Shown here one piece after another: positions 22,456 to 58,000 of a DNA stretch of 64,000 bases. Each line of letters starts with the position of its first letter. The stretch's first letter is position 1. The notes under the pieces are model-generated. The model had not been told where the DNA came from, did not search any database, and worked only from the letters and a program-made list of their open reading frames with translations. The stretch spans positions 32,001 through 96,000 of IMG/VR virus record IMGVR_UViG_3300009671_000010; one strand, 5' to 3'. The stretch comes from a virus. Taxonomy: Duplodnaviria; Caudoviricetes. The translations under genes were made by a program, and so were the position numbers.

Positions 22456-24594
22456 ATGAAAACACAACGTGCAATACAGTCTAAGAATACATCAAGAATA
22501 TTAAAAGCTGTCTTACCTGAATCCTTCAGAATAGTTAATGATAAATCATCTAATGGATATAAATTTATTAATTTATTATATGGAGTAGAAGTTGATGAAG
22601 TAAGAGAAAGACTTAAAGATTTATATAATAATACATCACTTGAATTTATGGAGTATGATGATAATATTATATATGAATCATATTTATCTGGTATTCCTCA
22701 CAGTGGAGTTCTTAATGCAGGTATATCAGGTATTCCAATATATATTGTAGACTATGATGAATTTCATAATGGAGATCCTACACGACTAAAACATATTGAA
22801 AATATTTCTATATCGGGAATCAGTTTTGTTAATGGACTTGAATATTTTAGAGATAATAATAGGTTATCTGGATATTATTTAATAAATTCAGATATAGATC
22901 AACTATCTGGATATATTGATAATATTTTTCCTAATAATAAAGTAATTCTTACGAGTACTGGTATAATTGCCAGTGGATTTTATGATGGCATTAAAGACCA
23001 TAATTTTAATACAAAAGGATATTATGAATTACTAGAACCAATGGATTATAATTCTTTATTATCTAAATATCCATTATATAGAAAAATATTAGATGATAAT
23101 GAAAATGAAGTATTTATAGATCACTATGAGCCTTATTATGGATGGATATATGATCATAATAATAACATAGTGGCTGATACATCTAGTTATAATGGAGATT
23201 ATTATTTTGATGAGAATGGTAATAAAATCTATTATAGAACAGCGTATAATAATCCTTATGGTTATAATAATTATAGTTCTGTATATATTGATCTAGAATA
23301 CATTCCTATTTCTGGAACATTACATGTATTTGATGTTGATTTACTTGATGCAGATGGCAATGCAATTGAAATACCAATGTCTGGAATTGATCTATATTAT
23401 AAAAAATCTGATAATACATTTAATCCAATTTATACTGGGTATGATGAATATGTTCCAGATGATATACAGTTTGGAAGTATTGCTGGTTTAAAAGCTGATA
23501 AAATATCTACAATTACATGGGACTATGTAACAGAAGGTAGTGGAAAAGATGATGTTACATTATCCTGGATTAATTCTTCAGGTAATATTACTAATAAAAT
23601 AAGAATCAATAACCCATCGAGTAGATATATAGTTGAATATAAATATAAAACATATGATAAATCTAGTTATATATCATCATTAAGTACCTCCAAATTTATT
23701 AGACTTGATTCATCAAATTCTATTTTTTCTATTAATAATAATGAATATAAAGAAATAGATTTTAAATTTACAAATGATCCAAATCTTAATGAATCCATTT
23801 CTGGATTGTATAGATCTACCATATTGACAATGGATGGGTTTAATGTTAGACCTAATTCAAGAATTAGTAAAATTGATTTTAATATTCCTGTTGAAATTAA
23901 AACCGATATTCTAACATCATATAATCTTATACAACCAGAGTATTTACATATTGGATATTCTAATGAGTTTATTCCGAGTATGTTATCTAAGAGAGAATAT
24001 TTATATAAGACTTACTTTGATTCTATAATTGATATTAATAATGATACTGAAAATGATTTATATAACAAATATACAATGAAATTTATTTCTGATGATATAT
24101 CAATAATAAATAGAATTCCTTATAATGGTAGGTTTTGTAAAAATATTCTTAATTTTAATATGAATTCCGAATATAGTATATCTCAATGTGATTTTATTAA
24201 AAATAACATATTTTTTAGAATATCTCTTAAGAAAGATTTTATTGAAGATTTTACACTATTAGAAGTATCGGATGCTACTAATGATATGTATTTTAAAGTT
24301 GATGTATTGAGCAATGGTGATATTAAACTTCATTCAAATATTGAATCTGATATAATGTGTACTAATTATATTTTTAAAAATGCATTTGTATATAACAAAG
24401 ATAATGATATCATTATTAGATATAATAATGGATCGTATGATATATATTCTAAAAATCATTTTACATACTTTAAACAAAATGAATATTATAGTGAGTATGT
24501 TACATTATTTACTGTAGATGATAGTTTTGTTAAATTAGCTAAAAATTGTTCACTTGAACTCTTTAATTTTGAAATTTATTATGAGGATCTGTAA
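22456..24594 (+). CDS. Putative baseplate/virion structural protein (Ser-Gly motif-rich)
   Basis: 712-aa ORF with GAGG RBS, in structural operon after baseplate J; beta-rich composition. Confidence 0.55.
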   Translation: MKTQRAIQSKNTSRILKAVLPESFRIVNDKSSNGYKFINLLYGVEVDEVRERLKDLYNNTSLEFMEYDDNIIYESYLSGIPHSGVLNAGISGIPIYIVDYDEFHNGDPTRLKHIENISISGISFVNGLEYFRDNNRLSGYYLINSDIDQLSGYIDNIFPNNKVILTSTGIIASGFYDGIKDHNFNTKGYYELLEPMDYNSLLSKYPLYRKILDDNENEVFIDHYEPYYGWIYDHNNNIVADTSSYNGDYYFDENGNKIYYRTAYNNPYGYNNYSSVYIDLEYIPISGTLHVFDVDLLDADGNAIEIPMSGIDLYYKKSDNTFNPIYTGYDEYVPDDIQFGSIAGLKADKISTITWDYVTEGSGKDDVTLSWINSSGNITNKIRINNPSSRYIVEYKYKTYDKSSYISSLSTSKFIRLDSSNSIFSINNNEYKEIDFKFTNDPNLNESISGLYRSTILTMDGFNVRPNSRISKIDFNIPVEIKTDILTSYNLIQPEYLHIGYSNEFIPSMLSKREYLYKTYFDSIIDINNDTENDLYNKYTMKFISDDISIINRIPYNGRFCKNILNFNMNSEYSISQCDFIKNNIFFRISLKKDFIEDFTLLEVSDATNDMYFKVDVLSNGDIKLHSNIESDIMCTNYIFKNAFVYNKDNDIIIRYNNGSYDIYSKNHFTYFKQNEYYSEYVTLFTVDDSFVKLAKNCSLELFNFEIYYEDL

Positions 24595-26621
24595 TGAAAA
24601 TTATTAAATATGTTGATCCAACTGGATCTGGAGATTATCTTGATCTTATTACTGGTATATCTGGAGTTATAAATTTAGCTAATGATGCAAATGAATACTC
24701 TGATATATATTTATATGTATCAAGAGGAATATATAGTGGATCATTTAATATTAATATACCTTATTCAGGATCACTTAGTATCATTGGTAATGATTCTGTA
24801 TTTTATCCAACTACAACATGTTATATATACGGCAACTATTCTAATAAAGAAAATTTTATTATTAATGGATTTAATATATATGGAAAATATAATTCAAATA
24901 CATGTTTTTCTTTATCTTCTGGATTATATTCTACTATTAATAATGCTAAAGTAGTTCATAATAATTTTATTAATAATTCAGGTGTACTAAGTATATATGA
25001 TTCAAAAATCACAGGTAGTGGTTATGGTGTAATAAGTGATGGGAGTGTATATTTTATTAGGTCTAGTATATCAAATTATAACATAGGAATTACATCAAAT
25101 GATATCAGTATATATGATTCATTTATAAGTTATTGTGATTCAGGTGTATTTAATATTGGAAATATAAATATATTTAATACTGTTATTAATAAATGTCATA
25201 CAGGTATATATAATATTGGAACTGTAGAATTACATAATACTACATTATATAATACATATGATATTTATTCTGTAAGTGGAATTGTAAGTTCAGAATCGTC
25301 TATTGCTAATATATTTGGTATATCTAATTCTGGATTTTTTAACAATCATAATTTTTATTCAGGCTATCAAGCTTCAGTATTTAGTTTTACTGATTCTAAT
25401 AATATTTCTGAACATACTCCTATATATAATTCAATACAGAATGATGACTACAGACTTGTCTTTAATAGTACTTCTGGATCTTATCTTGTTAATTTCTCTA
25501 ATAAAATAGATTCTGATATTAATGTTATAAATGATATTGAAAATATTAAATTAATAGAATACTTTGACACAGTAAATTATAATATTCCTATAGAGCAGTA
25601 TTCAAATTTTATATATAAAAATGATAGTACTATGATCTTATCTGATTATGGTAAAGAAATTCAGTTCTCAAATTTTATACAAAGTAAAGAAATATTATTA
25701 AATACTATCTCTATTTTTAAATTTAGCAATTATAATGTTTATACTGATAGTTCTTTTCCAATAGAATTAGATAAAATAGCATATACATGGGATTGGGATT
25801 TTAAAAATATAGCAACTTATAAAATAGGTAATGATTATAATTTTATAATTCCTCGATCAATAGTTAATGTAAAAAATATAATTGATGAAAAAATTCCTAA
25901 TTATAAAATAAGATATGATCTTTTAAATAAAAATTCATATAATGTATACAATCAAATATTTTATACTGGGATTTCGTATGATGATAACCTGTCTACTCTT
26001 CAAGATAAAATTATCTGGCTAGTTGATGGTAATAATCAAACATTATTAAAGAAGAATATTTATAATGACGAAATATATGATTCATATCCTCTTATGATAC
26101 CAAGTGGTACATATTATGTTAATCCATCAGGATTAATATATGTTGGTAGAGAAAATGAAAAATATAAATATGTATATGAAGCTGATCCATCGAAATACAT
26201 ATATACAGATAATTATAATGGTAGATTTCAACTACTTCCTACTAATATAAATAATAATATTGATATTAGAGGAATTAGAAATTATTATGATAAATTACTT
26301 ATTACTGGTTCAGAATACTCAATGAATATCAATAATAGACTGATTCCTTCATCTGGTAATTGTGTAGGAAAAATGTATATGTTAAATAATAATGATGATT
26401 TTTTACATTATATATATGAGCCAAATAATAGTTTTATTTTAGAAAATAATATTCCAACTGATTTAACAGTTGATGAATTTAATAATATTGTTATATCAGA
26501 TTATTATGATTCTAATTTATATAAATATAAATTTCTTTATGATTATGCTGTAATTGAATCTAATTATGATCAAGATATAAAAGTTCTATTAAGAGAATAC
26601 TATCCTAATATTGAATTGTAA
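24594..26621 (+). CDS. Virion protein with N-terminal right-handed beta-helix (pectin-lyase-like) region and probable C-terminal propeller-like region
   Basis: YVDPTGSGDY start, IYVSRGIY, repeated N/G/I beta-helix turns; C-terminal PTDLTVDEFNNIVISD blade-like motif. Confidence 0.5.
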   Translation: MKIIKYVDPTGSGDYLDLITGISGVINLANDANEYSDIYLYVSRGIYSGSFNINIPYSGSLSIIGNDSVFYPTTTCYIYGNYSNKENFIINGFNIYGKYNSNTCFSLSSGLYSTINNAKVVHNNFINNSGVLSIYDSKITGSGYGVISDGSVYFIRSSISNYNIGITSNDISIYDSFISYCDSGVFNIGNINIFNTVINKCHTGIYNIGTVELHNTTLYNTYDIYSVSGIVSSESSIANIFGISNSGFFNNHNFYSGYQASVFSFTDSNNISEHTPIYNSIQNDDYRLVFNSTSGSYLVNFSNKIDSDINVINDIENIKLIEYFDTVNYNIPIEQYSNFIYKNDSTMILSDYGKEIQFSNFIQSKEILLNTISIFKFSNYNVYTDSSFPIELDKIAYTWDWDFKNIATYKIGNDYNFIIPRSIVNVKNIIDEKIPNYKIRYDLLNKNSYNVYNQIFYTGISYDDNLSTLQDKIIWLVDGNNQTLLKKNIYNDEIYDSYPLMIPSGTYYVNPSGLIYVGRENEKYKYVYEADPSKYIYTDNYNGRFQLLPTNINNNIDIRGIRNYYDKLLITGSEYSMNINNRLIPSSGNCVGKMYMLNNNDDFLHYIYEPNNSFILENNIPTDLTVDEFNNIVISDYYDSNLYKYKFLYDYAVIESNYDQDIKVLLREYYPNIEL

Positions 26622-26632
26622 ATGGAGGTAAT

Positions 26633-27787
26633 ATGTCGTATCCTGTAGGTAACCCAGTTAGTGGTTTATATAATATTTGGAGTGAAGGTGCATTCACTCC
26701 TGAACAAGTAGTATCTTTTATTAGAGATAATCAAACGCCAATTAATAAAGCATCATTAATTAATTCAGTTGGTCACCATGTATCATTGATTGAAAATTTT
26801 ATTAATACAAGTTATTTAGCCAGAGCTGATTATCCAATTAACAGCGGATGGATTAATAATATATACAATAATTTTATACAGACAGACAATATTAATATGT
26901 CTGGTTCTATAACAATGAATGTAAAAAATAGTGATCAAGGAATAATTGCTTATTATGATGAAGCAGATAAGTATACCTTTACTTCATCTCTTAAACCCAA
27001 TAGTATTTCACTTACACAAAATCCTTGGAATAATTCAGATTATTGGGGAAAAACTACTATTACTCCTGGCGTTATTACTGTATGTGGTGCTAATAATTCT
27101 GGAATCACTGCATCGGGTTCTGTAATGCATTTTAATAGTGATACATTTGCTACATTAAATTTTAATTCACATGCACATGTTATTTCCGATAATAAAATTT
27201 TTTCTTATATTGATACAACCTTTAGAGTAAGTTCAGCTGGAATTCATACTGAGGTTAAACCAGATTCGATAACATCAACCTCTGCATGTGGATTTTTTAT
27301 AACAAATACTAATAAAATAAAACTTAAATCGAAATTATTAGATATGTCAGCTGGTACTGTTTTAACTAATTATCTTGGCAACTATGATTATCCAATTGTT
27401 AACTCATACATGTCCAAAGTTATAATTACTGATTCTCTTCAGATGGGAACTAATCCTAATAGTAAATTTAAAATTGGTGTATATAAGAAAAATTTATCTG
27501 GTAGTACAACATCACCAATTGTTTTAAGTGGAACTGTTGAAAATAATTATGGAGACTTTGATTCTGTAGTTGCTACTGCAATCTTTAATAATCAACTTAT
27601 AACTGCTGGTTTTGAAATTACTGGTGGAGATTTAGATGATTGGACAGTATATCCTTGTACTGGTTATACTATATCCACTGATTCATCAACTGGAGTAGTT
27701 AACATATCTGTAACTGGTTCCTTTGCTGGAATGGCTAGTACTACAAACACATATGTATCTATGTTTTTTATATATTTTTCAGAATAA
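26633..27787 (+). CDS. Putative tail/fibre-associated structural protein
   Basis: 384-aa ORF, GGAGG RBS, Thr/Ser/Gly-rich beta composition. Confidence 0.5.
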   Translation: MSYPVGNPVSGLYNIWSEGAFTPEQVVSFIRDNQTPINKASLINSVGHHVSLIENFINTSYLARADYPINSGWINNIYNNFIQTDNINMSGSITMNVKNSDQGIIAYYDEADKYTFTSSLKPNSISLTQNPWNNSDYWGKTTITPGVITVCGANNSGITASGSVMHFNSDTFATLNFNSHAHVISDNKIFSYIDTTFRVSSAGIHTEVKPDSITSTSACGFFITNTNKIKLKSKLLDMSAGTVLTNYLGNYDYPIVNSYMSKVIITDSLQMGTNPNSKFKIGVYKKNLSGSTTSPIVLSGTVENNYGDFDSVVATAIFNNQLITAGFEITGGDLDDWTVYPCTGYTISTDSSTGVVNISVTGSFAGMASTTNTYVSMFFIYFSE

Positions 27788-27799
27788 TTAGGAGTATTA

Positions 27800-29206
27800 A
27801 TGGCTAAAGTTACCAAGAAACAAGTATGGTCGAATATAGATGCATTCGGTTTATTGAATGGAATATCTGTATGGGATGAACAATATAAAAATCTGAAATA
27901 TGTAAGAAAACCATTTGATACTACTCATGATATCAGAAAAAAGATTTATAATTTACATGATAATAAAGTTGATACTACATATCAAGGTATTGTTAATGGA
28001 CTTTCAATTGAATTTGATTATGAACCATATAATGTATATGATAAACATATTTTTTTACTTTCATACGAACCCAATGTGTATAACAGTATAAATGAACAGG
28101 ATGTATTTGTATATTATAAACTACAAAATTCAGATGATTGGAATGAATTAACTCCACAGACTTGGAATGTATCAGCTAGTGGTTTTATGGTTTGGCAAAA
28201 ATCACATTATAATAATTTGTCTACAAAGAATTTTATATATTCTAATATTCTTCAAATTTTTTCTGATTTACCTGATTTGACTGAAATTAAAGTTAAATAT
28301 AAAATTTATATTGATACTGAGGATGGAAAAAAACTTGTTGATTTTACAGACGTAAATAGTATAAATGAAGACAGACTTACATATAGAAAAAAAACATTTA
28401 ATAATATTAATGATTCAATACAAGTATATAATTTAACTAATATTCCTAGCGGAATATACAGTCAATATTATAAAAATGGAATTCCTACTGATTTTACATA
28501 TAAATTAAAAAATTATATATCATCGAAGTTTAAACATAAATGGGGTGAATTTAATGATTCTTCATGTATATGGGATATTAATAAATATTATGGAAGTGGT
28601 CATTTACCATCATATTATGATGCATATGATCCAATAGATAGTGGTTATTTGGGTGGTATCGAGAGCTCAAGTACATGTTTATATCCATATGAAATCATAG
28701 AAACAGATAATCAAGTATTTAATCTTAAAATGTATCCTGGTAAATTTTATATAAGTGGTATTCCATTTTATATGTTTGAAAATCCACGAGTATCTAATCT
28801 TGTATTTTTTAATGGTTCATGTAATATTCCATCTGGTTTATCACGTACTATGCATACAATATTAAGTCCATCTGATTTCTATAATTCTACTCAGGATGAG
28901 TATTTAAATGGTCATGTATATGAAGATTACATATATCCAACTGGAATAAATCAGATTAAAATTAATGATATTTTAAGGCGTAGACCATATCTTAATAATA
29001 ATAACTCAGAACTTGATATAAGTTTAGCTAGTGGCGAATATAGTATTGATTTTAGTGCTGGTAAAATTTATGCATCAGGTATTAATAATGGCGTTTTAAT
29101 ATGGGATAATAGTTTAATAAATAGTGGATTTATAGTTCCATTTAATGTAAATCCAAGTTTATATTCAAATATAAACAGTAGTTTTTTTATTTACCTAAAT
29201 ATATAA
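27800..29206 (+). CDS. Putative virion structural protein (Ser-Gly motif-rich)
   Basis: 468-aa ORF, AGGAG RBS, within structural operon. Confidence 0.55.
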   Translation: MAKVTKKQVWSNIDAFGLLNGISVWDEQYKNLKYVRKPFDTTHDIRKKIYNLHDNKVDTTYQGIVNGLSIEFDYEPYNVYDKHIFLLSYEPNVYNSINEQDVFVYYKLQNSDDWNELTPQTWNVSASGFMVWQKSHYNNLSTKNFIYSNILQIFSDLPDLTEIKVKYKIYIDTEDGKKLVDFTDVNSINEDRLTYRKKTFNNINDSIQVYNLTNIPSGIYSQYYKNGIPTDFTYKLKNYISSKFKHKWGEFNDSSCIWDINKYYGSGHLPSYYDAYDPIDSGYLGGIESSSTCLYPYEIIETDNQVFNLKMYPGKFYISGIPFYMFENPRVSNLVFFNGSCNIPSGLSRTMHTILSPSDFYNSTQDEYLNGHVYEDYIYPTGINQIKINDILRRRPYLNNNNSELDISLASGEYSIDFSAGKIYASGINNGVLIWDNSLINSGFIVPFNVNPSLYSNINSSFFIYLNI

Positions 29207-29219
29207 GATTTGAATACAT

Positions 29220-32200
29220 ATGGATGAAATATATAAATTATATGAAGGTTCTGATGAACAATGTGATATAGTTCAACACAATCGTGAGTTACTTTGGGTT
29301 AAAGATGTTGGAGCAAGTGGTGCATTACGTTATATGGATAATGATGGTGTAGTAACATATATCTATCCATACATTAATGATCTCGATCTAACACATATTT
29401 TCGATGGACTAAATACTGGAATTATTACAGAGAGTGGAAATTTATATTACACAGATGAACGTGTTGATTTAAGAATATCTAATATGATGGGTGTTCCATA
29501 TGGAATTGTTCCACTTAATGATTCTGGTTTGATTCCATATCAATATATACCACCTATATCTGGAAGTGTCAGCTTAGTTAACTATTATACAAAGAAAAAT
29601 TTACAAACTCCTGGTCAATCATATGTTCATTGGGATAATATTATAAATGCTCCTGTAACTGATTTACCATCTAATGAAGGTGCAGAAGGATATTTATATA
29701 CTGATATATCTGGAATTCTTTCATGGAAAGATATATCCACATCTGATAATTCAGAACCATATCTTGGGTTACCAGCTGTAAGTGGTTATATATTATCTTC
29801 ATCAAATACTGGAGTTAGATCATGGGTGCCAGCTTATACACATCCTGTATATCAAACTATAAATTTATCATTATCTGGTAATATGGTGTTATCTAGCATA
29901 GTGGTTGATTCATTAGGACATATAACTACATTATCTGGTAGAACAATTTCATATAATGATATATCAGCACAAAAACATAATTCTAAACTGGATTCTTTAT
30001 CTAATCTAAATAGTACTAGTGGTTTTATTTATCAAAATGGAACTAATACATTTACAAAATATCAGTTTGGTGGAACAGGTACAAGTAATTTTATATCTCG
30101 AAGTGATCATACACATACTGGAGATTATGAACCAATCCTAACATCTGGCACTATTGCTCAGTATTTTCGTGGTGATAAAACATGGCAAACCTTAAATACA
30201 AGTAATGTACCCGAGGGTAGTAATTTATATTTTACAAGTTCTAGAGTTATTAGTACTTTAAGTGGTGCTATTTCTACTGCACTTACATCAAATCTAACAT
30301 CAAGTAGAGTAATAGTATCCAATAGTTCTGGTAAATTAACAACATCCAGCATTACATCAACACAGTTGTCATATTTATCGGGTGTATTATCTCCAATTCA
30401 AGCACAACTTGATTTAAAACAAGATCATTCAAATATTCTCGATGGCATCGTTAACCTGAATACTAGTACTGGTTTTGTATATAAATCTGATGCTAATTCT
30501 TTTATTACTTATAATTTCGGAGGAAATGGTGTATCTAGTGATATAAGCAGAAGCGATCACAATCATAGTGGCACGTATGAACCTGTAATAACAGGAACAG
30601 CTAACAGAATATTAAAAATACAATCTGATGGAACAGGGGTTACTGAATCAATTATCCGTGATAACGGAACAACTGCAACTATTAACGGGGCAATGAGTAT
30701 TAGTGGTAATATTATCGGTACAGGTAGTGCAAATCTTACAGTAAGCATGAATGCTACAAATAAGCAACTATTACTTACAGGTGGAACATCAGCAGTGCAA
30801 TCAAGTGGAGCAATAATTAAACTATATGGGATAACAGAGTCTACTAACGCAGGCAGATTGTATTTAGGTGCAGGTACAGGTAAGGAAATAGTTTTAAATG
30901 CTGATGCAGTATCGTTGAGTAAATCGTATTTCGGGACAAGACCTGTAAAAGATTATTATGATTTAGCAATAGGCAATCATACTTTTTGGGATAATAGCAA
31001 CTATTTAAACATAATTGACAATGCTTATTATGATGGAGGGTGGAAATATCGCACAACACGAGGGGCCGCTCGTATAGCGATAGGCAGTAACGGCAATATT
31101 AATTTAATGGTTGCCTCAGAAGGAACTGCTGATAGTGCTTTAACATGGAAGACTGCTATATACTCTGCCAATACTGGTAATGTTGCAATTGGTCATACTT
31201 CCCCTACAGAGAATCTTGACGTATCAGGTAATATAAAATTATCAGGAACATTAAATGTTGGTTCGATTCCAGCATACAGTTCATCAGCAACAACGTATTT
31301 AACAAGTAATTCTGGTATAATAAGCAGTAGAACGGCAGCACAAGTTAGGTCCGATATCGGAGCACAAACAGCAATTGCAGGAACAGCAAATAGAATATTA
31401 AAAGTGCAATCAGATGGAACTGGTGTAACAGAATCGAGTATTAGTGATAATGGAACTATTGTAGATTTCACTAATACAGGTTCTACTCTATTTAAAAGTT
31501 ATTTATATATAGGGGGTTTACCTACATCTGTAAACTCGCTTTTTACTGGTAATAATTATGCGTTAATCTATAGTACTGGTACAAATACAGGTTCTTACCC
31601 ATTTAATAATTACGGCCATTTGATTATACAGGCACAGTCTACGCAACCACGAAGTATATTATTTGTAGCTGGTACAACTCCTGAAGTTAAAATGAGGATA
31701 AATCCTAATAATGTAGTTGTAAATAATCCGCTTTCAGTCGATGGCAATATAAATGTTGGTGGTTTAACGGCGTCACGTATTGTTGAAACAGATGCAACAA
31801 AAACACTGGTGTCGGTAGCTAAAAACACAGCTTACAATAAAAATTTTGGAACTACGTCAGGTACAGTGTGTCAAGGAAACGATTCAAGGTTGAGTGATGC
31901 AAGAACACCAACATCTCATGCAAGTACTCACTTATCGGGAGGTAGCGATCAGTTGTTTGATCAAAACTTAAATACTACAAACGCACCACTATTTACTGGA
32001 GGTTCATATAGAACCAATTCAGGTTCCAATCCATTGTATATTACACGAATAGGTACTAATACTGAATCTATGGCCATGTGGGTTGATGATGTAATCGGGC
32101 ATGTCTATAGAACAAATGATGAATTTTCGGGAAAGTTTAGAATTACTATAGAAAATACAGATACTGAAGATTCAGACGGATCAAGAGCAAATACAGCGTA

Positions 32201-34037: not shown

Positions 34038-34099
34038 TATTTACTGTGTAAAATAGAATAATATTTTTTATATATACTATCTTTAAAGGAGGGAAATTT

Positions 34100-35766: not shown

Positions 35767-35795
35767 AAATATTATGAGGTACGGTGGATTAATAA

Positions 35796-37499: not shown

Positions 37500-37507
37500 G
37501 GAATATA

Positions 37508-39694: not shown

Positions 39695-40389
39695 TATTTG
39701 TGCCAGATTCATATATTCCATCAACAATATATTTACCATTTTATACATCTCCAAGAAAAAACATTATTAAATTAAATGATATTTCTCAGGAGATCGATAG
39801 TAATGGAATTAAATCAATAATTCATTTCGACAAACATACTCCATATATTGATTTTTCTAAGTTTAATTATGAAACGAAGAATTGGTATTGGTATGATATT
39901 AATAAATTTATGTATAAAATGAATTATAAATACATAGATAATAAAAAGAAATTTGTATTTGTAAATATTATGAATGATGATTCAATTGTAATGGATAATA
40001 TAAATTTATTATGGGATGATATAAAGTATGAATCATATATACTTACTGAAAATAAAACCAGGTTAACAAGCTATTCACCTATAGTAATATTATATAATAA
40101 AATACCTTTGATTGATTTGACAGATTATAATTTTTTTAAATTAAGAAATCCTGAAGTATTTAATAAATCTAATAAATATGAATTCTATTATGATTTTTCA
40201 TCTAGATGCTATACTAATATAGACTTTGATAATATAGATATTAATAATATAGAAATATGTTATTATGATATTCATAATATTTTTAATGTTAAATGTGACA
40301 TGGCGGCTAATAATGGAATGAATGGATATATTACTCCATACATTGATAATTATATGATAAAAATACATACACAAAATTCGAGAATATAA
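39691..40389 (+). CDS. Hypothetical (structural operon) protein
   Basis: 232-aa ORF coupled by ATGA/TAATG overlaps. Confidence 0.55.
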   Translation: MIFVPDSYIPSTIYLPFYTSPRKNIIKLNDISQEIDSNGIKSIIHFDKHTPYIDFSKFNYETKNWYWYDINKFMYKMNYKYIDNKKKFVFVNIMNDDSIVMDNINLLWDDIKYESYILTENKTRLTSYSPIVILYNKIPLIDLTDYNFFKLRNPEVFNKSNKYEFYYDFSSRCYTNIDFDNIDINNIEICYYDIHNIFNVKCDMAANNGMNGYITPYIDNYMIKIHTQNSRI

Positions 40390-41735: not shown

Positions 41736-44641
41736 ATAGTAAGTTATTATTTGGATATAAAACATCTGTTGGAACATACAGAGATTCTAGGTCTCTAATA
41801 TATTCATTACGACATGAAACAGACTACAGTGGTACAAAGGTAGTTATAGATGTATATGAAGATAATGGTAGAACATTTAATAAAGTAAGTACAATTGAAC
41901 CAGTTATTCCATATAGAGTTATGTTAGCAGATTATAATTTATTACATAATGATCCAAGTTTTTTGATAAATCAACCTATTGATTCAAGTAATAATTTAAT
42001 ATTCAATAGTGGATGTGCTGTAGTAGATGGAAAAATATATTCTACAATATGTTCTAGTAATTCACAGCCTTACTTTGAATTCAGTTTTACTAGATCTGGA
42101 CTACAGAACTTATTAAATAAACAAATTATTATTGAAAAAAAATCTAATGGTTCTGAAAATAAAAAACAATTTACGTCTATAAAAGCATATGATTTAAATC
42201 CAAGGTTAGGTATCAGAAAATCAGATACACTTGATATACTCGTGCTTTCCTGTGTCACAAGAATTAATATAAGAAATGATAATGGTATAGATTATGATTA
42301 TTGTATACCAGTATGTCTAGTGTTTAAAATTGATATATCTTCAATTCCTTCAGGTATTCTTAAGCCCAATGTTTTTTTTCCAGGTGTATCTAATTATAGG
42401 CTTATTAATAATAATTCTGGAAACTATTATATTAATTATAATATTATACCTAAATACACTAATGGTTATTGGTATAGTGTAGATAAGTATAATAGTTGCG
42501 ATTGTGATATATATGTTGATGAAAATATTGCACTTTTTACTAGTTACTACTTATTTAAATTTACAACAATAATGGCAATAGCTACACAAAAAACAAGAAA
42601 AATTCAAACTAATTTATTTAATATAAATCTTACATATTCTGATCAATATTCTGTTGGTACAAAAAATGATGTAATATCTGTATCATATAAAGATGAAAAT
42701 GATTCATATATACCAACTAAAATTTCTGTTGTAAATTATAATAATATCACGTATTTAGCATCCACTATTTTATCAAAGAATAAATATTTATCATATATTT
42801 ATTCTATTAGCAATAATAATATATCATCAAGTATACAAAATGATACTCTAAACATAGAGCTTAATAGAGTCGATAATAATATATATGCATCATATTTTTC
42901 ACATATTGATGGATTTTATGTTGGAAATTTTGTTGATATAATAGCAAAAAAAAATTACTGTAGATTTTATTTAAAAGAAGAAACAACTCAATATAAATAT
43001 AATAATATACAAATAAAAAATGTAGCTATAGATAAATCTAGAATGGATATATCTACTTTAGAAAAATACTTATTGCCAGTAATAAATAATGCTATATATG
43101 AACAATCTGCTTATATGTATGTAAAAGATTATATGATGTTTCATTCTCAGAATTACGGATATATATCTTCAAGAAAGTATTTAATAACTGAAAATACATT
43201 TCCCATAAAACTTGTTGATCTGCCAGATGACTATGTATGTACTGCAAATATTAGAAATAATCAATTATATTTTGTATATGATAATATACCGTTATCTATT
43301 AACTCAGATATGTCTATTAAATGGTCTTTATCTGGACTATATAACATAGATAATAAAGATATATCATATATAAATTTTTATATACCTAATAATAGTGGAA
43401 TATTTAAAGGTGATATTAATAAAGATAAAACAGTTTATTTTGATTATTCTAAAACTAATATTAATTTAACACAGTTTATATATGGAGCTAATGATTTATC
43501 ATATTGGGCAAAATTTAGCAGTCTGCAAAAATCCAATAGACCCACTGCAAGATTTTATCTTACATATAATGATGGAATAGAGAGAAGTATATTAGCTAGT
43601 GGTATAGAAACAAATGTAATCGCCAGTAATTATGATACTAATGGTATATTTGATTTGGATATATTTACATCTATTGATACATCAAATTTATATGATGGTA
43701 ATGGATACTCTTTTAATGATATTGGCTTCAGTTTAGATAATGTTAATTGGAAATTAGAAATATATGACTGTTTTGAAAATCTTTTAACATCAAATAGTGG
43801 CGTTATATCACTATCTTTACCTACTTTTAGTGGAAGTATATTATCTTCTGTTACTAAAACAGTATCCGATGAGCTATTATATAATTGGAATAGAACTGAA
43901 TATGCACAACTGAAAAATGTAATTGTAACAGTAGATGGTGATAATTCAACAAAATTTAGTTTATCACCAATATTAAATGTAAATGATGGTTATTCTGGAG
44001 TATATAACATTCCCATTATATCTTATAGTAAAGGTTCTACTGTGGAAATATCATCTAATATATATCTACATGGAACAAATATGTTTTATAAATATATATC
44101 TAATAAAGTTACATATTGTAAAAATCATAAGTATATTATTCAATCAGTAAGTATATATAATGATCTTGTCGATATAACTAATAAATTGGGATCATATAAT
44201 AGATTAAAGATTTATAAACCAGGTGAATCCAATACTGCATTAAGTTGTACATTTTCTATAATTCCAGAATCATGGTCATCCAACTCATATCCATATATAA
44301 AGAATATATTTTTATGTGCAGTTGATTCAGATTCTATAGATTTAAATGATAAGGAAATAATTAATCAATATTATGATCCGAATATTTCTTATGTTAACAC
44401 GACCTATCCTAACTGTAACTCATCATTTGGAAGTTTGATAATAAATAATTCTATTGTTAATACATCTATTGATGTTCTTAACCAAAATAAATATGAACTC
44501 AATAATCAAACTTTGGAAGTAGAACTTACAGCAAATGGTGAATATACCTTATATTTAATTATACAAGATGAATTTGATCAATACTCATCTTACTGTCTTA
44601 ATAATATTAATGACTATTTTCATATTCCATTTGGTGGTTAA
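41732..44641 (+). CDS. Large hypothetical virion protein
   Basis: 969-aa beta-rich ORF in structural operon. Confidence 0.55.
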   Translation: MNSKLLFGYKTSVGTYRDSRSLIYSLRHETDYSGTKVVIDVYEDNGRTFNKVSTIEPVIPYRVMLADYNLLHNDPSFLINQPIDSSNNLIFNSGCAVVDGKIYSTICSSNSQPYFEFSFTRSGLQNLLNKQIIIEKKSNGSENKKQFTSIKAYDLNPRLGIRKSDTLDILVLSCVTRINIRNDNGIDYDYCIPVCLVFKIDISSIPSGILKPNVFFPGVSNYRLINNNSGNYYINYNIIPKYTNGYWYSVDKYNSCDCDIYVDENIALFTSYYLFKFTTIMAIATQKTRKIQTNLFNINLTYSDQYSVGTKNDVISVSYKDENDSYIPTKISVVNYNNITYLASTILSKNKYLSYIYSISNNNISSSIQNDTLNIELNRVDNNIYASYFSHIDGFYVGNFVDIIAKKNYCRFYLKEETTQYKYNNIQIKNVAIDKSRMDISTLEKYLLPVINNAIYEQSAYMYVKDYMMFHSQNYGYISSRKYLITENTFPIKLVDLPDDYVCTANIRNNQLYFVYDNIPLSINSDMSIKWSLSGLYNIDNKDISYINFYIPNNSGIFKGDINKDKTVYFDYSKTNINLTQFIYGANDLSYWAKFSSLQKSNRPTARFYLTYNDGIERSILASGIETNVIASNYDTNGIFDLDIFTSIDTSNLYDGNGYSFNDIGFSLDNVNWKLEIYDCFENLLTSNSGVISLSLPTFSGSILSSVTKTVSDELLYNWNRTEYAQLKNVIVTVDGDNSTKFSLSPILNVNDGYSGVYNIPIISYSKGSTVEISSNIYLHGTNMFYKYISNKVTYCKNHKYIIQSVSIYNDLVDITNKLGSYNRLKIYKPGESNTALSCTFSIIPESWSSNSYPYIKNIFLCAVDSDSIDLNDKEIINQYYDPNISYVNTTYPNCNSSFGSLIINNSIVNTSIDVLNQNKYELNNQTLEVELTANGEYTLYLIIQDEFDQYSSYCLNNINDYFHIPFGG

Positions 44642-44643
44642 AA

Positions 44644-45993
44644 TTGAACGACATAATAATATCATTTGATAGTCCTTCTAATAATAATTTTTCATTACAA
44701 CCATATAATATTAATGATGATAATATATATTTTAAAATTATTCCAACATCTACTCCAAGTCTACTTGCAGGTGAGAGACTGAGATTTGCTGCCATACCTA
44801 AAGACACAACTTTAACTAGTGGTGATATCTTTTCATATCTTAGTGAATCTAAAATAAATGATATATCCAGTAGTGGAATATTTATATATGAATATACATC
44901 TAATGATACATCTAATTTGTTTCCAGAATGTTTAATTAAAATATATGATAATACTTTTGAAAATACACAGTATGATTTATATTGGACCAGTTTATATAAT
45001 GGTTTAGAATCAACATATATTAATAACAATAGTGTATATTCAAATATCAGAAATATAAGATCAGATGATGTTATAATAACTAGTACTATAAATACAGATT
45101 ATATAGATTATAATATTAAATACAATGAAATTAATAATGATGATTTGGATTACGGAGAATATGGACCTTATGTATTAAAAGTAACATATCATCCATACAA
45201 TATAACAAGTCCTAATATAAGTGGTTATCTGGACTCTTCTGAATTTATTTTTGAAAAAATAGAATATTATTATGATGATATTGCTACTGTAAGTGGAATA
45301 AATATAGCATTGCCATATTATTTTGATGATAGTAATATACCAGCTGTATATAGATTTGAAATGGCATATAGAAGTTTAAATGGAAATAACTCAAATATAA
45401 TATCTAGTACTATGGATCATAGAATATATGATTCTATTCCATCTCAACAATTATCTTCTATTAAAAATATAAATACTGATTATGTTATAAAAAGTGGAGA
45501 TATAAAAATACCAAAAGAAGTTAATCCATATAGAAAAAGATTATCTATTGGCATACAGGACATAGCTATTAACAAAAACATATATAATAAAACTGGAACT
45601 TATATCTCTAAACAAAAAATACTACCATATTATATGTATACATTTTCTCTTGAAGTAAATGAATATATACCAGATTATAAAGACATTAACAAATATGACA
45701 CAGTTAAATATTACATCTCATTTAATGATAATAAATGGATTCGTATTTCACCAATTAATAGAGTAAATGAATATGAAAACGAACAGTTAATTCCAAAATT
45801 AATAGTATTTGATAAAGAGATAGATAATAATAATAAATCAGTTTTATATATACCAGAATCAATTAATAACTCATATATATATAAAGTGGTGTTTGATTTA
45901 TCATCTATGGATGATATTTTTGTACCACCTGAAATAAGAGAAATTAAGTGTAATGTATCAGATAGAAATATAATTTTAAATAGTGGAGTATAA
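44644..45993 (+). CDS. Putative virion structural protein
   Basis: TTG start after GGTGG RBS; C-terminal SIGIQDI...YISK...VKYYISFNDNKWIRISPINR. Confidence 0.55.
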   Translation: MNDIIISFDSPSNNNFSLQPYNINDDNIYFKIIPTSTPSLLAGERLRFAAIPKDTTLTSGDIFSYLSESKINDISSSGIFIYEYTSNDTSNLFPECLIKIYDNTFENTQYDLYWTSLYNGLESTYINNNSVYSNIRNIRSDDVIITSTINTDYIDYNIKYNEINNDDLDYGEYGPYVLKVTYHPYNITSPNISGYLDSSEFIFEKIEYYYDDIATVSGINIALPYYFDDSNIPAVYRFEMAYRSLNGNNSNIISSTMDHRIYDSIPSQQLSSIKNINTDYVIKSGDIKIPKEVNPYRKRLSIGIQDIAINKNIYNKTGTYISKQKILPYYMYTFSLEVNEYIPDYKDINKYDTVKYYISFNDNKWIRISPINRVNEYENEQLIPKLIVFDKEIDNNNKSVLYIPESINNSYIYKVVFDLSSMDDIFVPPEIREIKCNVSDRNIILNSGV

Positions 45994-48900
45994 ATGAATT
46001 ATAAATTTAATAATATTGTTAAAAAAATATTTGATAATTTCATTCATGGGGAATATGGTAAACCAGTTATTCCTACCAAAAATGATATAATGAAAAAAAT
46101 AAAAGAATATACATCTAATGAATATACTCCAATTTTAAACAATAATAAATTAACTGATTTATCATATAAAAATATATCAACAAAATTTGAAGATATTATT
46201 GATGATATTGATGTTTTATATTCATCAATACAAGATGAATCAAATGATATTTTAGATCAACTTACTAACTCATTAAAAGAATATAATGGGGTTAACAGAG
46301 AGATCAATAGAATAAAATCAAATATAAATGATATTAATAATAACAACTACAGAAAATCACTCCATAGTATATCATTCACTGAATCATTTAATTCATTAGA
46401 AAATATAGATACATCAAGAAGTAATATAGTTGATATTAATGCAGGTATATTTACCATTCAATCAAATAAAAATAACATTGTACCTTTAAATCATTATATT
46501 GGAAAGAGACTTGATTTTAATATATATGATAATTATTCAGAAGTATTATCCAATGGTTTTGTTGGTGATCCAGATGTATCAAATATATTGGATAATAATG
46601 ATTCTAATCAAATATTATATAAAATCAAAACTAAACAACCATCTAGTTTAAAAGCAGCTACTACTATACAACTACATCCTAATGGTGATATGATTAATAT
46701 TAATAAAGTGTCTATAGAAACCGATTCTACAGTTGGTAACGGATCAATATGTTTATATTATATGGATAAGTATACATGGAAAATTATTCCAAATTTTGCT
46801 ATCAAAAATATAGATAAAAATGTTATAATCTATAATTTTTCTGAAATATCTTGTACACATATTAAAATAGAATTTATTAAATATATTCCTGATAATTCTG
46901 AAACTAATGAATATTATATATTATTAAAAAATATATCAATAGGCAAAGTCAATAATGAAAGCAGTGCTGTAGTTGTATCTAAACCTATAAATATTAATAC
47001 TACATCTATTGATAATCTTTCATATAATATAGATAGCGATGTACCAAATGGTTGTAACATAAAAGTATACGTTACTAGTGATATTAAAATTAATGGTTCA
47101 TTTAGAGATAATCTAGGTTCACTTACAAGTTCTAACTCTAATAACATATCATCATTTGATTTTAATGCACCAGGATATGTATATCTTAGTGACATAAAAA
47201 ATGCTGCTCAGTATGTATCTGGTTTATATTCATATATTTCATCTGATTATTTGTGGAAAGAAATAACATCAGATAATACATCTAATACTCCTAATAAAAT
47301 TTATTTTAATAATACCAATAGCAGTGATAAAAATATTAATTCATTACATTGTTTAAAATATGAAACATATTGGGGTGACAACAGTTTTTCTGGGGTGTAC
47401 AGTGATTGGATTATAAGTGGATGGTGTAATGAAAGTAATCCATATTGGTATTATTTAGAACCTATGGTTAGTAGTGGAATATTTATTTATGGTGATACAA
47501 TTACTCATAATATATCTGGTGAGCTTATTACGTGGATAGAAGATAGTGAAGGTAATATTAATCCAGAAGTAACAACACATCCTTCATATTCTGGTCAATG
47601 GTTGGGCAATGGCAAAGGATATCCATATAACTATGCAAGTGGTTCATTATTATATGGAACATCAATAACTGGTGTTTATGGATGGTGGAGACCATATTCT
47701 TATGCAGTTACTCCATCTGGAATAGATGAATATCATGATCTTGATAGAGATGGATATCTTGATCAAGGATTTTGTAATACAATGCCTGATTTTGTTTTTA
47801 ATAATAATAATTATTATAAAATTTATTGTTTTGGACATGATACATCAATAATTTCATCGAGTGTTAAATTATATAATTATCAATCTATATCAGAAATCAA
47901 ATCAAAATATGATAATATTAATAATAAATTTGTATGGGAATATAATAATAATTGGACAATTTTAAATAAAACAACAACTATTACCTATAGTTCAGATAAT
48001 ACTGTATGGTCGGGATATAAATTTAAATTTAATATTGGAATGAAAGATTGTGAATTTGTTGATGATCCAATAGTAGAAATAAGAAAATCTGGTACTAATG
48101 TTATATTGCAAAAATCAGAATATACTGTTAGTTTTGGAAAAACTGAATTAGAAATTAATTTCTTAAGACTTTCTAACAGACTGGAAGCAAATACCGCCAG
48201 TTTTGATATTACCTATAGATATAAATTATTTAACACATATAGTTCATCATGGACTGGATTCTTAATAGTATCACCTAATATTGATAAACCATCTATTACA
48301 ATTAATAATTTTAAAATTTACAATACTGATATAAATGGTATTGGAAAAATTGAATTAATTAATGTAGACACAAATGAAAAAATAATATATAATGAACAAA
48401 ATAAATTTGATATATTACTTCAAAATATATCAAAAAATTCTAATACTCATTTTAAAATTAAAATTTTTTGTGCATCAAATACAACAACTGGATTTACAGC
48501 ATTAAAAAATTCATACGAACCATGGATACCAATAGTAGCAAATGATAATATCAGTATTTCAGATGGTATTAAAATTGTACCTAAACTATCATCAATAGAT
48601 ATAGTTGATTTTGCTACATTACTATATGATACAACAACTGGAGAAAATGCATCTATTGTTACAGAAGAAGATGGATATAAATATCTTGTAGTTAAAGAAC
48701 CTTCTAAAGACTATTTTCCTGGATACTATTATGATAGTGATTTACAAGAATATAAAAGGTATATAGAATATAATGTAAATAATGGTCATTTTATTAGAAT
48801 GGCATATGATTCATCTGGTAACTTACATAGATATACAACAGGATCATCAGGAAATTATGTTTATAACATAGATAACACGATAGATAGTAATTGGAATAAT

Positions 48901-49374
48901 GGAAGTATTTTAAAAGGATATGAAAATTCTAATAATGATTTATACTATAGACATCATTCTACTATCGGTTATCCTTTAAATTTAGAAAAAGATAGTATAA
49001 TACAAATACAGAAAACATTATTTAAAGGTGATATAGATCCATGTCCATCTGGTGAATATTGGGATGCAAAGATAGTAGGATCTAGTAGATGGTTAGAATG
49101 GACATTACTTGAAAATGAACAAAAGTTAGAACGAAATATGTCATGGCAAAGAACTAACAGTGTTTATATAAATGAAGTAGTTCCTAATAGAGGATTTTTG
49201 TTTTATAATACAGCAGAAAATCTTCCTTTATATTACAGTATTTCCTATCTAACATCAATTGAAAGTAATGAATCTAATAACTCATTTCTTTATAAGATTG
49301 AATTAAATGGGAACCCGTCTGATAATAATGTACCTGTTATTAGATCTATTAATTTTATAATAAATGGAGAATAA
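45994..49374 (+). CDS. Large putative virion structural protein (paralog family)
   Basis: 1126 aa; KFEDIIDDIDVLY then FTESF...VDINAGIFTI; C-terminal PVIRS. Confidence 0.55.
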   Translation: MNYKFNNIVKKIFDNFIHGEYGKPVIPTKNDIMKKIKEYTSNEYTPILNNNKLTDLSYKNISTKFEDIIDDIDVLYSSIQDESNDILDQLTNSLKEYNGVNREINRIKSNINDINNNNYRKSLHSISFTESFNSLENIDTSRSNIVDINAGIFTIQSNKNNIVPLNHYIGKRLDFNIYDNYSEVLSNGFVGDPDVSNILDNNDSNQILYKIKTKQPSSLKAATTIQLHPNGDMININKVSIETDSTVGNGSICLYYMDKYTWKIIPNFAIKNIDKNVIIYNFSEISCTHIKIEFIKYIPDNSETNEYYILLKNISIGKVNNESSAVVVSKPININTTSIDNLSYNIDSDVPNGCNIKVYVTSDIKINGSFRDNLGSLTSSNSNNISSFDFNAPGYVYLSDIKNAAQYVSGLYSYISSDYLWKEITSDNTSNTPNKIYFNNTNSSDKNINSLHCLKYETYWGDNSFSGVYSDWIISGWCNESNPYWYYLEPMVSSGIFIYGDTITHNISGELITWIEDSEGNINPEVTTHPSYSGQWLGNGKGYPYNYASGSLLYGTSITGVYGWWRPYSYAVTPSGIDEYHDLDRDGYLDQGFCNTMPDFVFNNNNYYKIYCFGHDTSIISSSVKLYNYQSISEIKSKYDNINNKFVWEYNNNWTILNKTTTITYSSDNTVWSGYKFKFNIGMKDCEFVDDPIVEIRKSGTNVILQKSEYTVSFGKTELEINFLRLSNRLEANTASFDITYRYKLFNTYSSSWTGFLIVSPNIDKPSITINNFKIYNTDINGIGKIELINVDTNEKIIYNEQNKFDILLQNISKNSNTHFKIKIFCASNTTTGFTALKNSYEPWIPIVANDNISISDGIKIVPKLSSIDIVDFATLLYDTTTGENASIVTEEDGYKYLVVKEPSKDYFPGYYYDSDLQEYKRYIEYNVNNGHFIRMAYDSSGNLHRYTTGSSGNYVYNIDNTIDSNWNNGSILKGYENSNNDLYYRHHSTIGYPLNLEKDSIIQIQKTLFKGDIDPCPSGEYWDAKIVGSSRWLEWTLLENEQKLERNMSWQRTNSVYINEVVPNRGFLFYNTAENLPLYYSISYLTSIESNESNNSFLYKIELNGNPSDNNVPVIRSINFIINGE

Positions 49375-49602
49375 ATGAGAAGTATATATCCTGTATCATC
49401 ACAAGAAATAAACGATATATTATTATCACACTACGAGAATTTAATATATATACTTGGGTATAAAAATAATAATGTATTATATTCAGGAGTATACACTATA
49501 TTAGATAATGTTGTTAATAATACTACTATTGAAGATAAACAACAGTTAATTAATATTTTAAAATATGATTATATATATAAAAAGAATAGTAAAAGTATAT
49601 AG
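49375..49602 (+). CDS. Small hypothetical protein
   Basis: GGAG RBS; abuts neighbours. Confidence 0.55.
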   Translation: MRSIYPVSSQEINDILLSHYENLIYILGYKNNNVLYSGVYTILDNVVNNTTIEDKQQLINILKYDYIYKKNSKSI

Positions 49603-52110: not shown

Positions 52111-52124
52111 GGTTATATTTTCTA

Positions 52125-57402: not shown

Positions 57403-57410
57403 TATATCTC

Positions 57411-57998: not shown

Positions 57999-58000
57999 TA

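What the first reader, a model, noticed from the sequence alone, without database searches (positions are those of the whole stretch)
22456..49602. Ser-Gly motif strongly enriched in a subset of structural proteins: candidate glycosylation sequon
Seen (hand counts, approximate), glycines preceded by Ser: 12/34 in 22456, 15/39 in 24594, 9/25 in 27800, 10/28 in 35796, 6/13 in 44644, plus many in 41732, 45994 and the fibre N-terminus. The motif is usually S-G-[I/L/V/Y/F] (ISGI, PSGY, LSGY, VSGL, NSGF). That is about 35-45% versus roughly 10% expected from Ser content. By contrast, the RNAP and hub proteins have only about 10 SG each in about 2300 aa, baseplate J has 1, and 37508/40389 have 1-2. 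The motif uses varied codons, so it is not a DNA repeat. Established: Ser-Gly is the acceptor for proteoglycan O-xylosylation, and some mycobacteriophages glycosylate virion proteins with their own GTs. Inference: unrelated surface-exposed proteins have independently acquired a short sequon for phage-encoded O-glycosylation, giving a glycan-coated virion.
Basis: partly seen in the sequence, partly recalled or inferred. Interest (0 to 1): 0.85.

Follow-up and report, generated by a model that had tools for sequence, protein, structure and literature searches.

The report
Ser-Gly excess in outer phage-tail proteins
The outer tail proteins of this uncultured large phage and its relatives carry two to four times more Ser-Gly pairs than chance allows, at the corners where loops enter beta-strands. 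This may mark attachment sites for the phage's own sugar-adding enzymes, but no chemistry shows that yet.

Summary
In the distal-tail block (window 22456-49374), SG is the most over-represented of all 400 dipeptides: 123 seen against 54.5 expected (z about 10), even when local composition is kept. GS, TG, NG and DG are not comparably enriched. Both serine codon families are used, and the proteins share no BLAST similarity. Four relatives from metagenomes show the same pattern in the same orthologues. It is absent from non-structural and giant internal virion proteins. It is also absent from T4, 0305phi8-36 and phiCDHM19 and weak in Moorella phage; none of these four has GT4/GT2-type genes.

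In a confident model of the 24594 tailspike-like protein, the SG glycines sit 1-2 residues before strand starts at beta-helix corners. Only about a third of SG sites are shared between orthologues, yet the density is kept. Within one fold family SG-richness was lost or gained at least four times, independently of AT content.

All of this fits a factor acting in trans. Two conserved GT4-type glycosyltransferases lie beside the structural operon. Glycosylation remains unproven (about 0.4), and a purely structural turn habit is nearly as likely.

This scan has flagged the same pattern in other phage genomes.

The parts
22456..24594 (+). SG-rich protein (712 aa), first gene after baseplate J. It has 12 SG vs 3.3 expected, all within residues 78-450.
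   Evidence: Orthologues are enriched in every relative (O/E 3.0-3.8). The AF2 model was too poor to use (pLDDT 47).
24594..26621 (+). Tailspike-like protein (675 aa): N-terminal right-handed beta-helix plus C-terminal NHL-like propeller. It has 15 SG vs 4.3 expected, 12 of them in the beta-helix.
   Evidence: Family of 42 homologues.
26633..27787 (+). Moderately SG-rich protein (384 aa), 7 SG vs 3.5 expected.
   Evidence: Orthologues have O/E 2.3-2.9 in G001, G003 and G004.
27800..29206 (+). SG-rich protein (468 aa), 9 SG vs 2.5 expected.
   Evidence: Orthologues have O/E 3.5-4.6.
29220..34037 (+). Long fibre protein (1605 aa), 32 SG vs 19.2 expected (O/E 1.67). Enrichment is strongest in residues 1-150.
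   Evidence: Among the relatives it has only partial matches in G003.
34477..35766 (+). Radical SAM protein inside the fibre module (context, not explained here); 5 SG vs 1.8 expected.
   Evidence: Present in G004 (48% identity), not found in G001 or G002.
35796..37499 (+). SG-rich protein (567 aa), 10 SG vs 2.8 expected. Only 1 site is shared with the G001 orthologue, which itself has 18 SG.
37508..41735 (+). Three distal-block proteins without SG excess (728, 232 and 448 aa; O/E 0-0.9). They serve as internal negative controls.
   Evidence: The G001 orthologues are also unenriched.
41732..44641 (+). SG-rich protein (969 aa), 11 SG vs 4.7 expected.
44644..45993 (+). SG-rich protein (449 aa), 6 SG of only 13 Gly (O/E 4.3).
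45994..49374 (+). Large distal protein (1126 aa), 13 SG vs 6.5 expected. They are clustered in residues 409-699; residues 1-300 have none.
52946..54097 (-). GT4-type (GT-B) glycosyltransferase, conserved in the lineage. It is the candidate trans-acting enzyme.
   Evidence: Pfam Glycos_transf_1. Orthologues are 54% identical in G001 and G004 and 37-38% in G002.
54117..60071 (-). Variable sugar-tailoring cassette: FkbM methyltransferase, AsnB-like amidotransferase, TOD1/MUCI70-like protein, DUF5672 and others.
   Evidence: Partly shared with G004. In G001 it is replaced by a nucleotide-sugar synthesis cassette.
60068..63766 (-). Second conserved glycosyltransferase, interrupted by intein sequence.
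   Evidence: PHROG glycosyltransferase hit and intein models. Orthologues are 42-49% identical in G001, G002 and G004.

Best explanation
The motif S-G-x-hydrophobic marks the corner where a surface loop enters a beta-strand on the outward-facing proteins of the virion. These are the distal tail proteins, the sheath insertion domains and a head-associated protein. Selection keeps the number of such serines high in many unrelated proteins at once, while their positions drift. That points to a factor acting in trans.

The most likely factor is one of the phage's own conserved GT4-type glycosyltransferases. Inferred, not shown: it would O-glycosylate the exposed serine on folded or folding beta-structures in the cytoplasm before assembly. 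A variable sugar cassette would supply and tailor the glycan, giving a sugar-coated tail.

Shown here: the enrichment, its specificity, its structural position, its turnover, its lability and its co-occurrence with GTs. Inferred: that the serines are modified, and by which enzyme.
For: 1. The excess is specific to Ser and to one direction. SG O/E is 2.26-2.55 in the distal sets of G000, G001 and G003, while TG is 0.93-1.39 and NG 0.91-1.30; in G000 DG is 1.07 and GS about 1.1.
2. It is coordinated across proteins with no mutual similarity, and it is weakened in several of them together in relative G002.
3. There is positional turnover with density kept. Between G000 and G001, 33 of 102 and 133 SG sites share a column. 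The non-shared sites alone are about 1.8-2.3 times expectation.
4. The trait is labile within one fold. In the 24594 family, 30 members have O/E of at least 2 and 7 have O/E 0.4-1.25. At least 4 changes are needed on the tree, including sisters P0045 (3.6) and P0049 (1.2).
5. AT pressure does not explain it. SG O/E vs an AT-codon proxy gives rho -0.26 (p 0.10). Non-SG glycines fall with AT-richness (rho -0.70), yet the very AT-rich window protein keeps 15 SG.
6. It is confined to outer virion proteins. Non-structural proteins are at 1.08-1.12 and the giant internal proteins at 0.68 pooled. Eleven of 12 sheath SGs lie between the regions that match sheath-family profiles.
7. Two GTs are conserved beside the structural operon in G000, G001, G002 and G004. 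The four control phages have no GT1/GT4- or GT2-family gene, and none shows a comparable excess (three at about 1.0-1.2, Moorella phage at 1.47).
8. There is a precedent. TibC heptosylates serines, not threonines, of the TibA beta-helix, including Ser-313 in N-S-G-G (PMC4358343).
Against: - There is no chemical evidence for any modification.
- The sites occupy a classic structural position. In the model, 9 of 15 SG glycines lie 1-2 residues before a strand start, stacked at beta-helix corners. SG-poor homologues have TN, NN, NS or TS there, residues typical of such turns.
- SG dipeptides are about twice as conserved as average dipeptides (0.28 vs 0.14), as a structural motif would be.
- G002 keeps all three GT4-type genes, yet its pooled distal SG O/E is only 1.55.
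- Remote beta-propeller homologues, probably cellular, also reach O/E 1.5-3.4.
- The GTs have no feature that identifies a protein acceptor, and one orthologue also matches Pfam GT4-conflict. The sugar genes could instead modify DNA or the host surface.
- The correlation between GTs and SG excess is one phylogenetic contrast.
Confidence: 0.4

Rival explanations
1. A purely structural turn habit. Ser-Gly is this lineage's preferred way to build the tight corner before a beta-strand: Gly in the left-handed conformation, with the Ser hydroxyl capping the backbone. It would be used in beta-helices, propellers and sandwiches of the outer tail, with no modification.
For: - SG glycines sit 1-2 residues before strand starts and stack at beta-helix corners in a confident model (pLDDT 87).
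- SG-poor homologues have N, D, S or T at the Gly column and T, N, S or A at the Ser column.
- When the Gly is kept, Thr is the commonest replacement for Ser.
- SG is better conserved than other dipeptides.
- One SG (P-S-G-L at residue 512) is kept in 33 of the 37 SG-rich and SG-poor family members scored.
- Remote beta-helix and propeller homologues show O/E of about 1.3-2.
- SG count is anticorrelated with [STN][ND] turn dipeptides (rho -0.67).
Against: - Folding physics does not explain why Ser, and not Thr, Asn or Asp, is enriched.
- It does not explain why unrelated proteins gain and lose the habit together.
- It does not explain why the same fold exists with and without it, with at least 4 switches.
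- It does not explain why T4, 0305phi8-36 and phiCDHM19 tail proteins lack it.
- Two thirds of the sites are not positionally conserved.
Confidence: 0.38
2. Another lineage-specific factor selects for Ser before Gly. Candidates are a different modification (for example by the radical SAM enzyme in the fibre module), avoidance of deamidation-prone Asn-Gly or Asp-Gly in long-lived particles, or evasion of a host protease or defence that recognises other turn sequences.
For: - Coordinated, labile, surface-restricted enrichment implies some factor acting in trans.
- A radical SAM gene lies inside the fibre module in G000 and G004.
- AGY serine codons are over-used in SG (42% vs 28%), one transition away from Asn AAT.
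Against: - The radical SAM gene is missing from G001, which has the strongest enrichment.
- NG and DG are not depleted in SG-rich proteins: NG O/E is 0.91-1.30 and DG is 1.07 in G000. Deamidation avoidance is therefore not visible.
- No protease or defence candidate was identified.
Confidence: 0.12
3. A compositional or DNA-level artefact, such as a hidden DNA repeat, codon-boundary bias, AT mutational pressure or paralogy.
For: The genome is extremely AT-rich (22-31% GC across the window). There is a modest AGT excess in SG serines.
Against: - Both serine codon families and both major Gly codons are used.
- Other NNT-GGN pairs (IG, YG, FG) are depleted.
- Block shuffles keep z at about 10.
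- There is no BLAST similarity among or within the proteins.
- Enrichment persists in relatives from 26 to 38% GC.
- There is no significant correlation with the AT proxy.
Confidence: 0.03

Closest known systems
Bacterial autotransporter heptosyltransferases (TibC/AAH) acting on the TibA/AIDA-I beta-helices (PMC4358343)
   Same: A cytoplasmic enzyme hyperglycosylates many serines, not threonines, at loops of a right-handed beta-helix. One mapped site is Ser-313 in N-S-G-G. Here 12 of the 15 SG in 24594 lie in its beta-helix domain, mostly at turns, and the excess is Ser-specific.
   Different: No GT9/heptosyltransferase-like gene is present; the phage enzymes are GT4-type. The other mapped TibA site, Ser-322, is in T-S-A-A, not SG. 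The substrates here are many unrelated phage tail proteins, not one repeat-built adhesin. Modification is not shown.
Mycobacteriophage virion glycosylation (Freeman et al. 2023, cited as ref. 80 in PMC12582341)
   Same: Phage-encoded glycosyltransferases and extensive glycosylation of virion proteins.
   Different: The original paper was not held. From my own knowledge, the sugars there sit on C-terminal extensions of capsid and tail-tube proteins, not on a dispersed SG motif in distal tail proteins. The phages are unrelated.
Turn motifs with a left-handed glycine before a strand (type I turn plus G1 bulge; beta-arcs and Asn ladders of beta-solenoids)
   Same: The Gly lies 1-2 residues before a strand. 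The preceding residue is polar. N or D replaces G in SG-poor homologues, and sites stack along the helix.
   Different: The textbook motif accepts D, N, S and T before the Gly (established knowledge, not tested against a database here). In this lineage only Ser is enriched, and the preference is switched on and off between clades.
Eukaryotic proteoglycan xylosylation at Ser-Gly
   Same: The acceptor dipeptide is Ser-Gly.
   Different: That site needs acidic flanks and often S-G-x-G (established knowledge). Here the flanks are hydrophobic or polar and the site is followed by a beta-strand. No XylT-like enzyme was found by the Pfam, NCBIfam and PHROG scans of the window's genes.

Membership tests
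Phage-encoded virion O-glycosylation system | The phage encodes glycosyltransferases conserved with the structural module | tested here: met
   The GT4-type gene 52946-54097 and the GT 60068-63766 are conserved in G001, G002 and G004.
Phage-encoded virion O-glycosylation system | Glycans are covalently attached to virion proteins | not testable with these tools
   This needs glycoproteomics or glycan staining. The phage is uncultured.
Phage-encoded virion O-glycosylation system | Candidate acceptor sites are restricted to exposed virion proteins and absent elsewhere | tested here: met
   SG O/E by class: distal tail 2.3-2.6, head and sheath 1.3-1.6, non-structural 1.1, giant internal proteins 0.68 pooled. 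Sheath sites lie between the regions that match sheath-family profiles.
Phage-encoded virion O-glycosylation system | Site excess tracks the presence of the enzymes across phages | tested here: inconclusive
   GTs are present in all four lineage genomes long enough to judge. GT1/GT4 and GT2 families are absent from the four control phages, none of which shows a comparable excess. This is one phylogenetic contrast, and G002 keeps its GTs with a weak excess.
BAHT (TibC/AAH) type serine heptosylation | GT9-like heptosyltransferase | tested here: not met
   No PF01075 match in G000, which is only 48% complete. The GTs found are GT1/GT4-type.
BAHT (TibC/AAH) type serine heptosylation | Acceptors are serines, not threonines, on beta-helix loops | tested here: inconclusive
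   The sequence pattern fits: it is Ser-specific and sits at beta-helix corners. No modification was measured.
Proteoglycan-type Ser-Gly xylosylation | Acidic residues flank S-G, often S-G-x-G | tested here: not met
   The flanks are I, L, N, S, P or T before and I, Y, L or F after. The second residue after the Gly is hydrophobic in 70% of sites.
Structural turn motif with left-handed Gly before a strand | The Gly lies in the last loop positions before a beta-strand | tested here: met
   This holds for 9 of 15 SG glycines vs 4 of 24 other glycines in the 24594 model. It rests on one protein; the second model failed.
Structural turn motif with left-handed Gly before a strand | D, N, S and T are interchangeable before the Gly | tested here: not met
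   Only Ser is enriched. TG, NG and DG are near expectation in G000, G001 and G003, although T, N and D do replace S in orthologues.

The most novel reading that the evidence does not exclude
S-G-x-hydrophobic at loop-to-strand corners is a genuine O-glycosylation sequon. It would be read by a conserved phage GT4-type enzyme that decorates folded beta-structures of many unrelated tail proteins. A swappable sugar cassette would set the glycan, giving large environmental phages an evolvable glycan coat on their receptor-binding apparatus.
Probability: 0.35. Interest if true: 0.8.

Novelty: new variant of a known kind. Interest (0 to 1): 0.55.

Why it matters
If the serines are glycosylated, this would be a sequence-readable sequon for phage tail glycosylation. 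It would be a way for phages to shield or tune their receptor-binding proteins with a swappable glycan. It would also be a marker that lets glycosylated virions be predicted from metagenomes.

If they are not, the finding still needs an explanation. It would be a lineage-specific, Ser-specific, reversible rule for building beta-strand corners, imposed on many unrelated proteins at once. Either way it warns against reading every tail-protein dipeptide bias as a modification site.

Tried and rejected
Explanations rejected:
- DNA repeat or codon-boundary effect. Both Ser codon families are used, and IG, YG and FG are depleted.
- Local composition. Block shuffles keep z at about 10.
- Paralogy or internal repeats. 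There were no BLAST hits at E 0.01.
- A generic property of tail or fibre proteins. T4, 0305phi8-36, phiCDHM19 and Moorella phage do not show it.
- AT pressure as the cause of SG-poor homologues.
- Deamidation avoidance. NG and DG are not depleted.
- Avoidance of SG in giant internal proteins as a sign of a sequon. NG is also low there in two of the three relatives, so it may only reflect fold class.

Dead ends:
- The AF2 model of 22456 was unusable (pLDDT 47). No model coordinates are exposed, so solvent exposure of the serines could not be computed.
- Viral scans with P0048 and P0030 found nothing.
- The Freeman 2023 paper is not held.
- PDB and NCBIfam searches did not say what the GT4 acts on.
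- Searches were mistyped references and gave errors only.


Full report
**Setting**

The window is bases 32001-96000 of a single 111,472-bp viral contig (G000; CheckV completeness 48%). It carries the tail part of a contractile-tailed phage:
- three giant proteins;
- a gp25-like protein and a baseplate-J protein;
- a block of fourteen plus-strand genes, 22456-49374, without Pfam or PHROG matches apart from a radical SAM protein at 34477;
- a minus-strand run of glycosyltransferase and sugar-tailoring genes.

The nearest cultured relatives, all distant, are Bacillus phage 0305phi8-36, Moorella phage MTATph1 and Clostridioides phages.

**Observation**

- Five proteins have SG O/E of 3.5-4.3.
- Three have 2.0-2.4.
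- The fibre has 1.67.
- Three proteins inside the block (37508, 39691, 40389) have none.

Pooled over the block, SG is 123 observed vs 54.5 expected. It is the most deviant of all 400 dipeptides (z 9.3). Shuffling only within 15-60 residue blocks leaves z at about 10. In the rest of the contig SG is 1.18.

The excess is directional: GS is about 1.1. It is largely Ser-specific: TG is 1.39, NG 1.30 and DG 1.07.

It is not a DNA effect. AGY and TCN serine codons and both GGT and GGA are used. Other codon pairs ending in T before GGN (IG, YG, FG) are depleted.

The motif extends to S-G-x-hydrophobic. The second residue after the Gly is hydrophobic in 70% of SG sites against 39% after other glycines (p 5e-9).

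The enriched proteins have no BLAST similarity to each other and no internal repeats.

**Relatives**

Baseplate-J and family searches brought in four large relatives:
- G001, 219 kb;
- G002, 147 kb;
- G003, 62.7 kb;
- G004, 196.6 kb, filed in a MAG.

They also brought in eight metagenome fragments. Gene order is conserved.

The same orthologues are enriched everywhere, at GC contents from 26 to 38%.

SG O/E by class:

| Class | G000 | G001 | G002 | G003 |
|---|---|---|---|---|
| Distal tail | 2.26 | 2.55 | 1.55 | 2.55 |
| Head, sheath and proximal tail | 1.37 | 1.56 | 1.25 | 1.30 |
| Non-structural | 1.12 | 1.08 | 1.10 | - |
| Three giant internal proteins | 0.96 | 0.42 | 0.60 | 0.68 |

The giant internal proteins pool to 94 vs 138.5 expected.

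In the sheath, 11 of 12 SGs in G000 and 14 of 16 in G001 lie between the regions that match sheath-family profiles. That is the part expected on the outside.

**Controls**

| Phage and region | Pooled or typical SG O/E |
|---|---|
| T4 fibres | 1.01 |
| T4 baseplate | 1.17 |
| 0305phi8-36 distal tail | about 1 |
| phiCDHM19 | about 1 |
| Moorella phage | 1.47 |

Remote beta-helix homologues of 24594 are about 1.3. Remote NHL-propeller proteins are about 2.

A strong excess is therefore not a generic property of tail proteins or of the beta-helix fold. A mild one is common in such folds.

**Structure**

The 24594 family alignment (42 sequences) gave a confident model (pLDDT 87). It has a right-handed beta-helix like the Det7 and P22 tailspikes and pectin methylesterases, followed by an NHL-like propeller.

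Nine of the 15 SG glycines lie 1-2 residues before a strand start, against 4 of 24 other glycines. In the helix they recur at the same corners of successive coils.

In SG-poor homologues these columns hold TN, NN, NS, TS or AI. Only P-S-G-L at residue 512 is common to SG-rich and SG-poor members alike (SG in 28 of 30 rich and 5 of 7 poor).

The model of 22456 failed, so the structural mapping rests on one protein.

**Evolution**

Across orthologue pairs, dipeptides are conserved as follows:
- SG: 28% of comparisons;
- other xG: 16%;
- other Sx: 9%;
- the remaining dipeptides: 14%.

So SG is under some purifying selection.

Yet G000 and G001 share only 33 columns out of 102 and 133 SG sites. 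The non-shared sites alone exceed expectation about twofold. Families 35796 and 44644 keep a 3.4-4.7-fold excess with almost no shared sites.

In the 24594 family, 30 members are SG-rich and 7 SG-poor. On a quick maximum-likelihood tree the poor state needs at least 4 changes. These include a well-supported sister pair with O/E 3.6 and 1.2.

SG O/E does not follow an AT-codon proxy (rho -0.26, p 0.10). Non-SG glycines do fall with AT-richness (rho -0.70). The window's protein is among the most AT-driven, yet it keeps 15 SG while having the second-fewest other glycines in the family.

**Enzymes**

- The GT4-type gene next to the structural operon is conserved at 54% identity in G001 and G004 and 37-38% in G002.
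- A second GT, intein-bearing in G000, is conserved at 42-49%.
- The genes between them differ. G000 and G004 carry FkbM, AsnB-like and DUF5672 genes. G001 carries DegT, dehydratases, C-methyltransferases, a B12-radical SAM enzyme and a UDP-GlcNAc 2-epimerase.
- The four control phages have no GT1/GT4- or GT2-family gene.
- Nothing identifies the acceptor of these enzymes.
- No GT9-type heptosyltransferase is present.

**Reading**

Several features argue for a factor acting in trans on exposed Ser-Gly corners:
- specificity for Ser;
- confinement to outer virion proteins;
- simultaneous presence in unrelated proteins;
- partial simultaneous loss in G002;
- repeated switching within one fold;
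- maintenance despite positional turnover.

The conserved GTs are the obvious candidates. TibC/AAH heptosylation of beta-helix serines, one of them in N-S-G-G, is a real precedent.

Against this stand the classic turn position of the sites, their above-average conservation, the weak excess in G002 despite its GTs, and the complete lack of chemical evidence.

I put O-glycosylation at about 0.4, a purely structural habit at about 0.38, another trans factor at about 0.12, and an artefact at about 0.03.

Earlier notes of this scan report the same pattern in many other phage genomes, with the same unresolved choice.

Noticed in passing
window 34477-35766 (+): A radical SAM gene sits inside the fibre module. 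It has an orthologue in G004 (48% identity) but none was found in G001 or G002. Its presence therefore does not track the SG excess.
   Followed up: partly
L047 / L049-L058 (G004 contig C1, 196,613 bp): A collinear relative of this phage is filed as a contig of a MAG labelled Candidatus Bathyarchaeia. It looks like a whole viral genome binned with the archaeon. The phage's lytic-transglycosylase and endolysin-like domains argue for a bacterial host, so the label is probably a binning artefact. No CRISPR check was made.
   Followed up: no
L006-L007 (G001 94.5-114.5 kb): In G001 the sugar cassette is a nucleotide-sugar pathway: DegT aminotransferase, several dehydratases/epimerases, two C-methyltransferases, a B12-binding radical SAM enzyme and a UDP-GlcNAc 2-epimerase. 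Inteins interrupt one dehydratase and the radical SAM enzyme.
   Followed up: partly
L009 region, G001 147812-154861 (-): The 2349-aa hub/lysin giant of G001 has no SG at all where 7.7 are expected. The three giant internal proteins pooled over the four genomes have 94 vs 138.5 expected. NG is also low in two of the three relatives, so this may only reflect fold class.
   Followed up: partly
window 51641-52924 (-): Three genes lie directly downstream of the GT4: a 92-aa protein (60-63% identical in relatives), a ClpP-like protease and a 118-aa protein. They are conserved in G000, G001 and G004 but were not found in the SG-poorer G002, which is only 64% complete.
   Followed up: partly
L023:9647-12646 (G000, upstream of the window): The portal gene encodes 999 aa here against 625-714 aa in relatives. 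It carries an insert (residues about 327-415) that matches a PHROG of intein-type thymidylate synthases, so it is probably another intein.
   Followed up: no
window 22456-49374, SG serine codons: Serines in SG use AGY codons more often than other serines (42% vs 28%, p 0.001). AGT is one transition from Asn AAT, which hints that many SG sites arose from Asn-Gly turns.
   Followed up: partly
L007:13366-14523 (G001 orthologue of the GT4): The G001 GT4 orthologue also matches Pfam PF20706 (GT4 in conflict systems) over its C-terminal half, above the family cut-off. The window's own copy does not.
   Followed up: no
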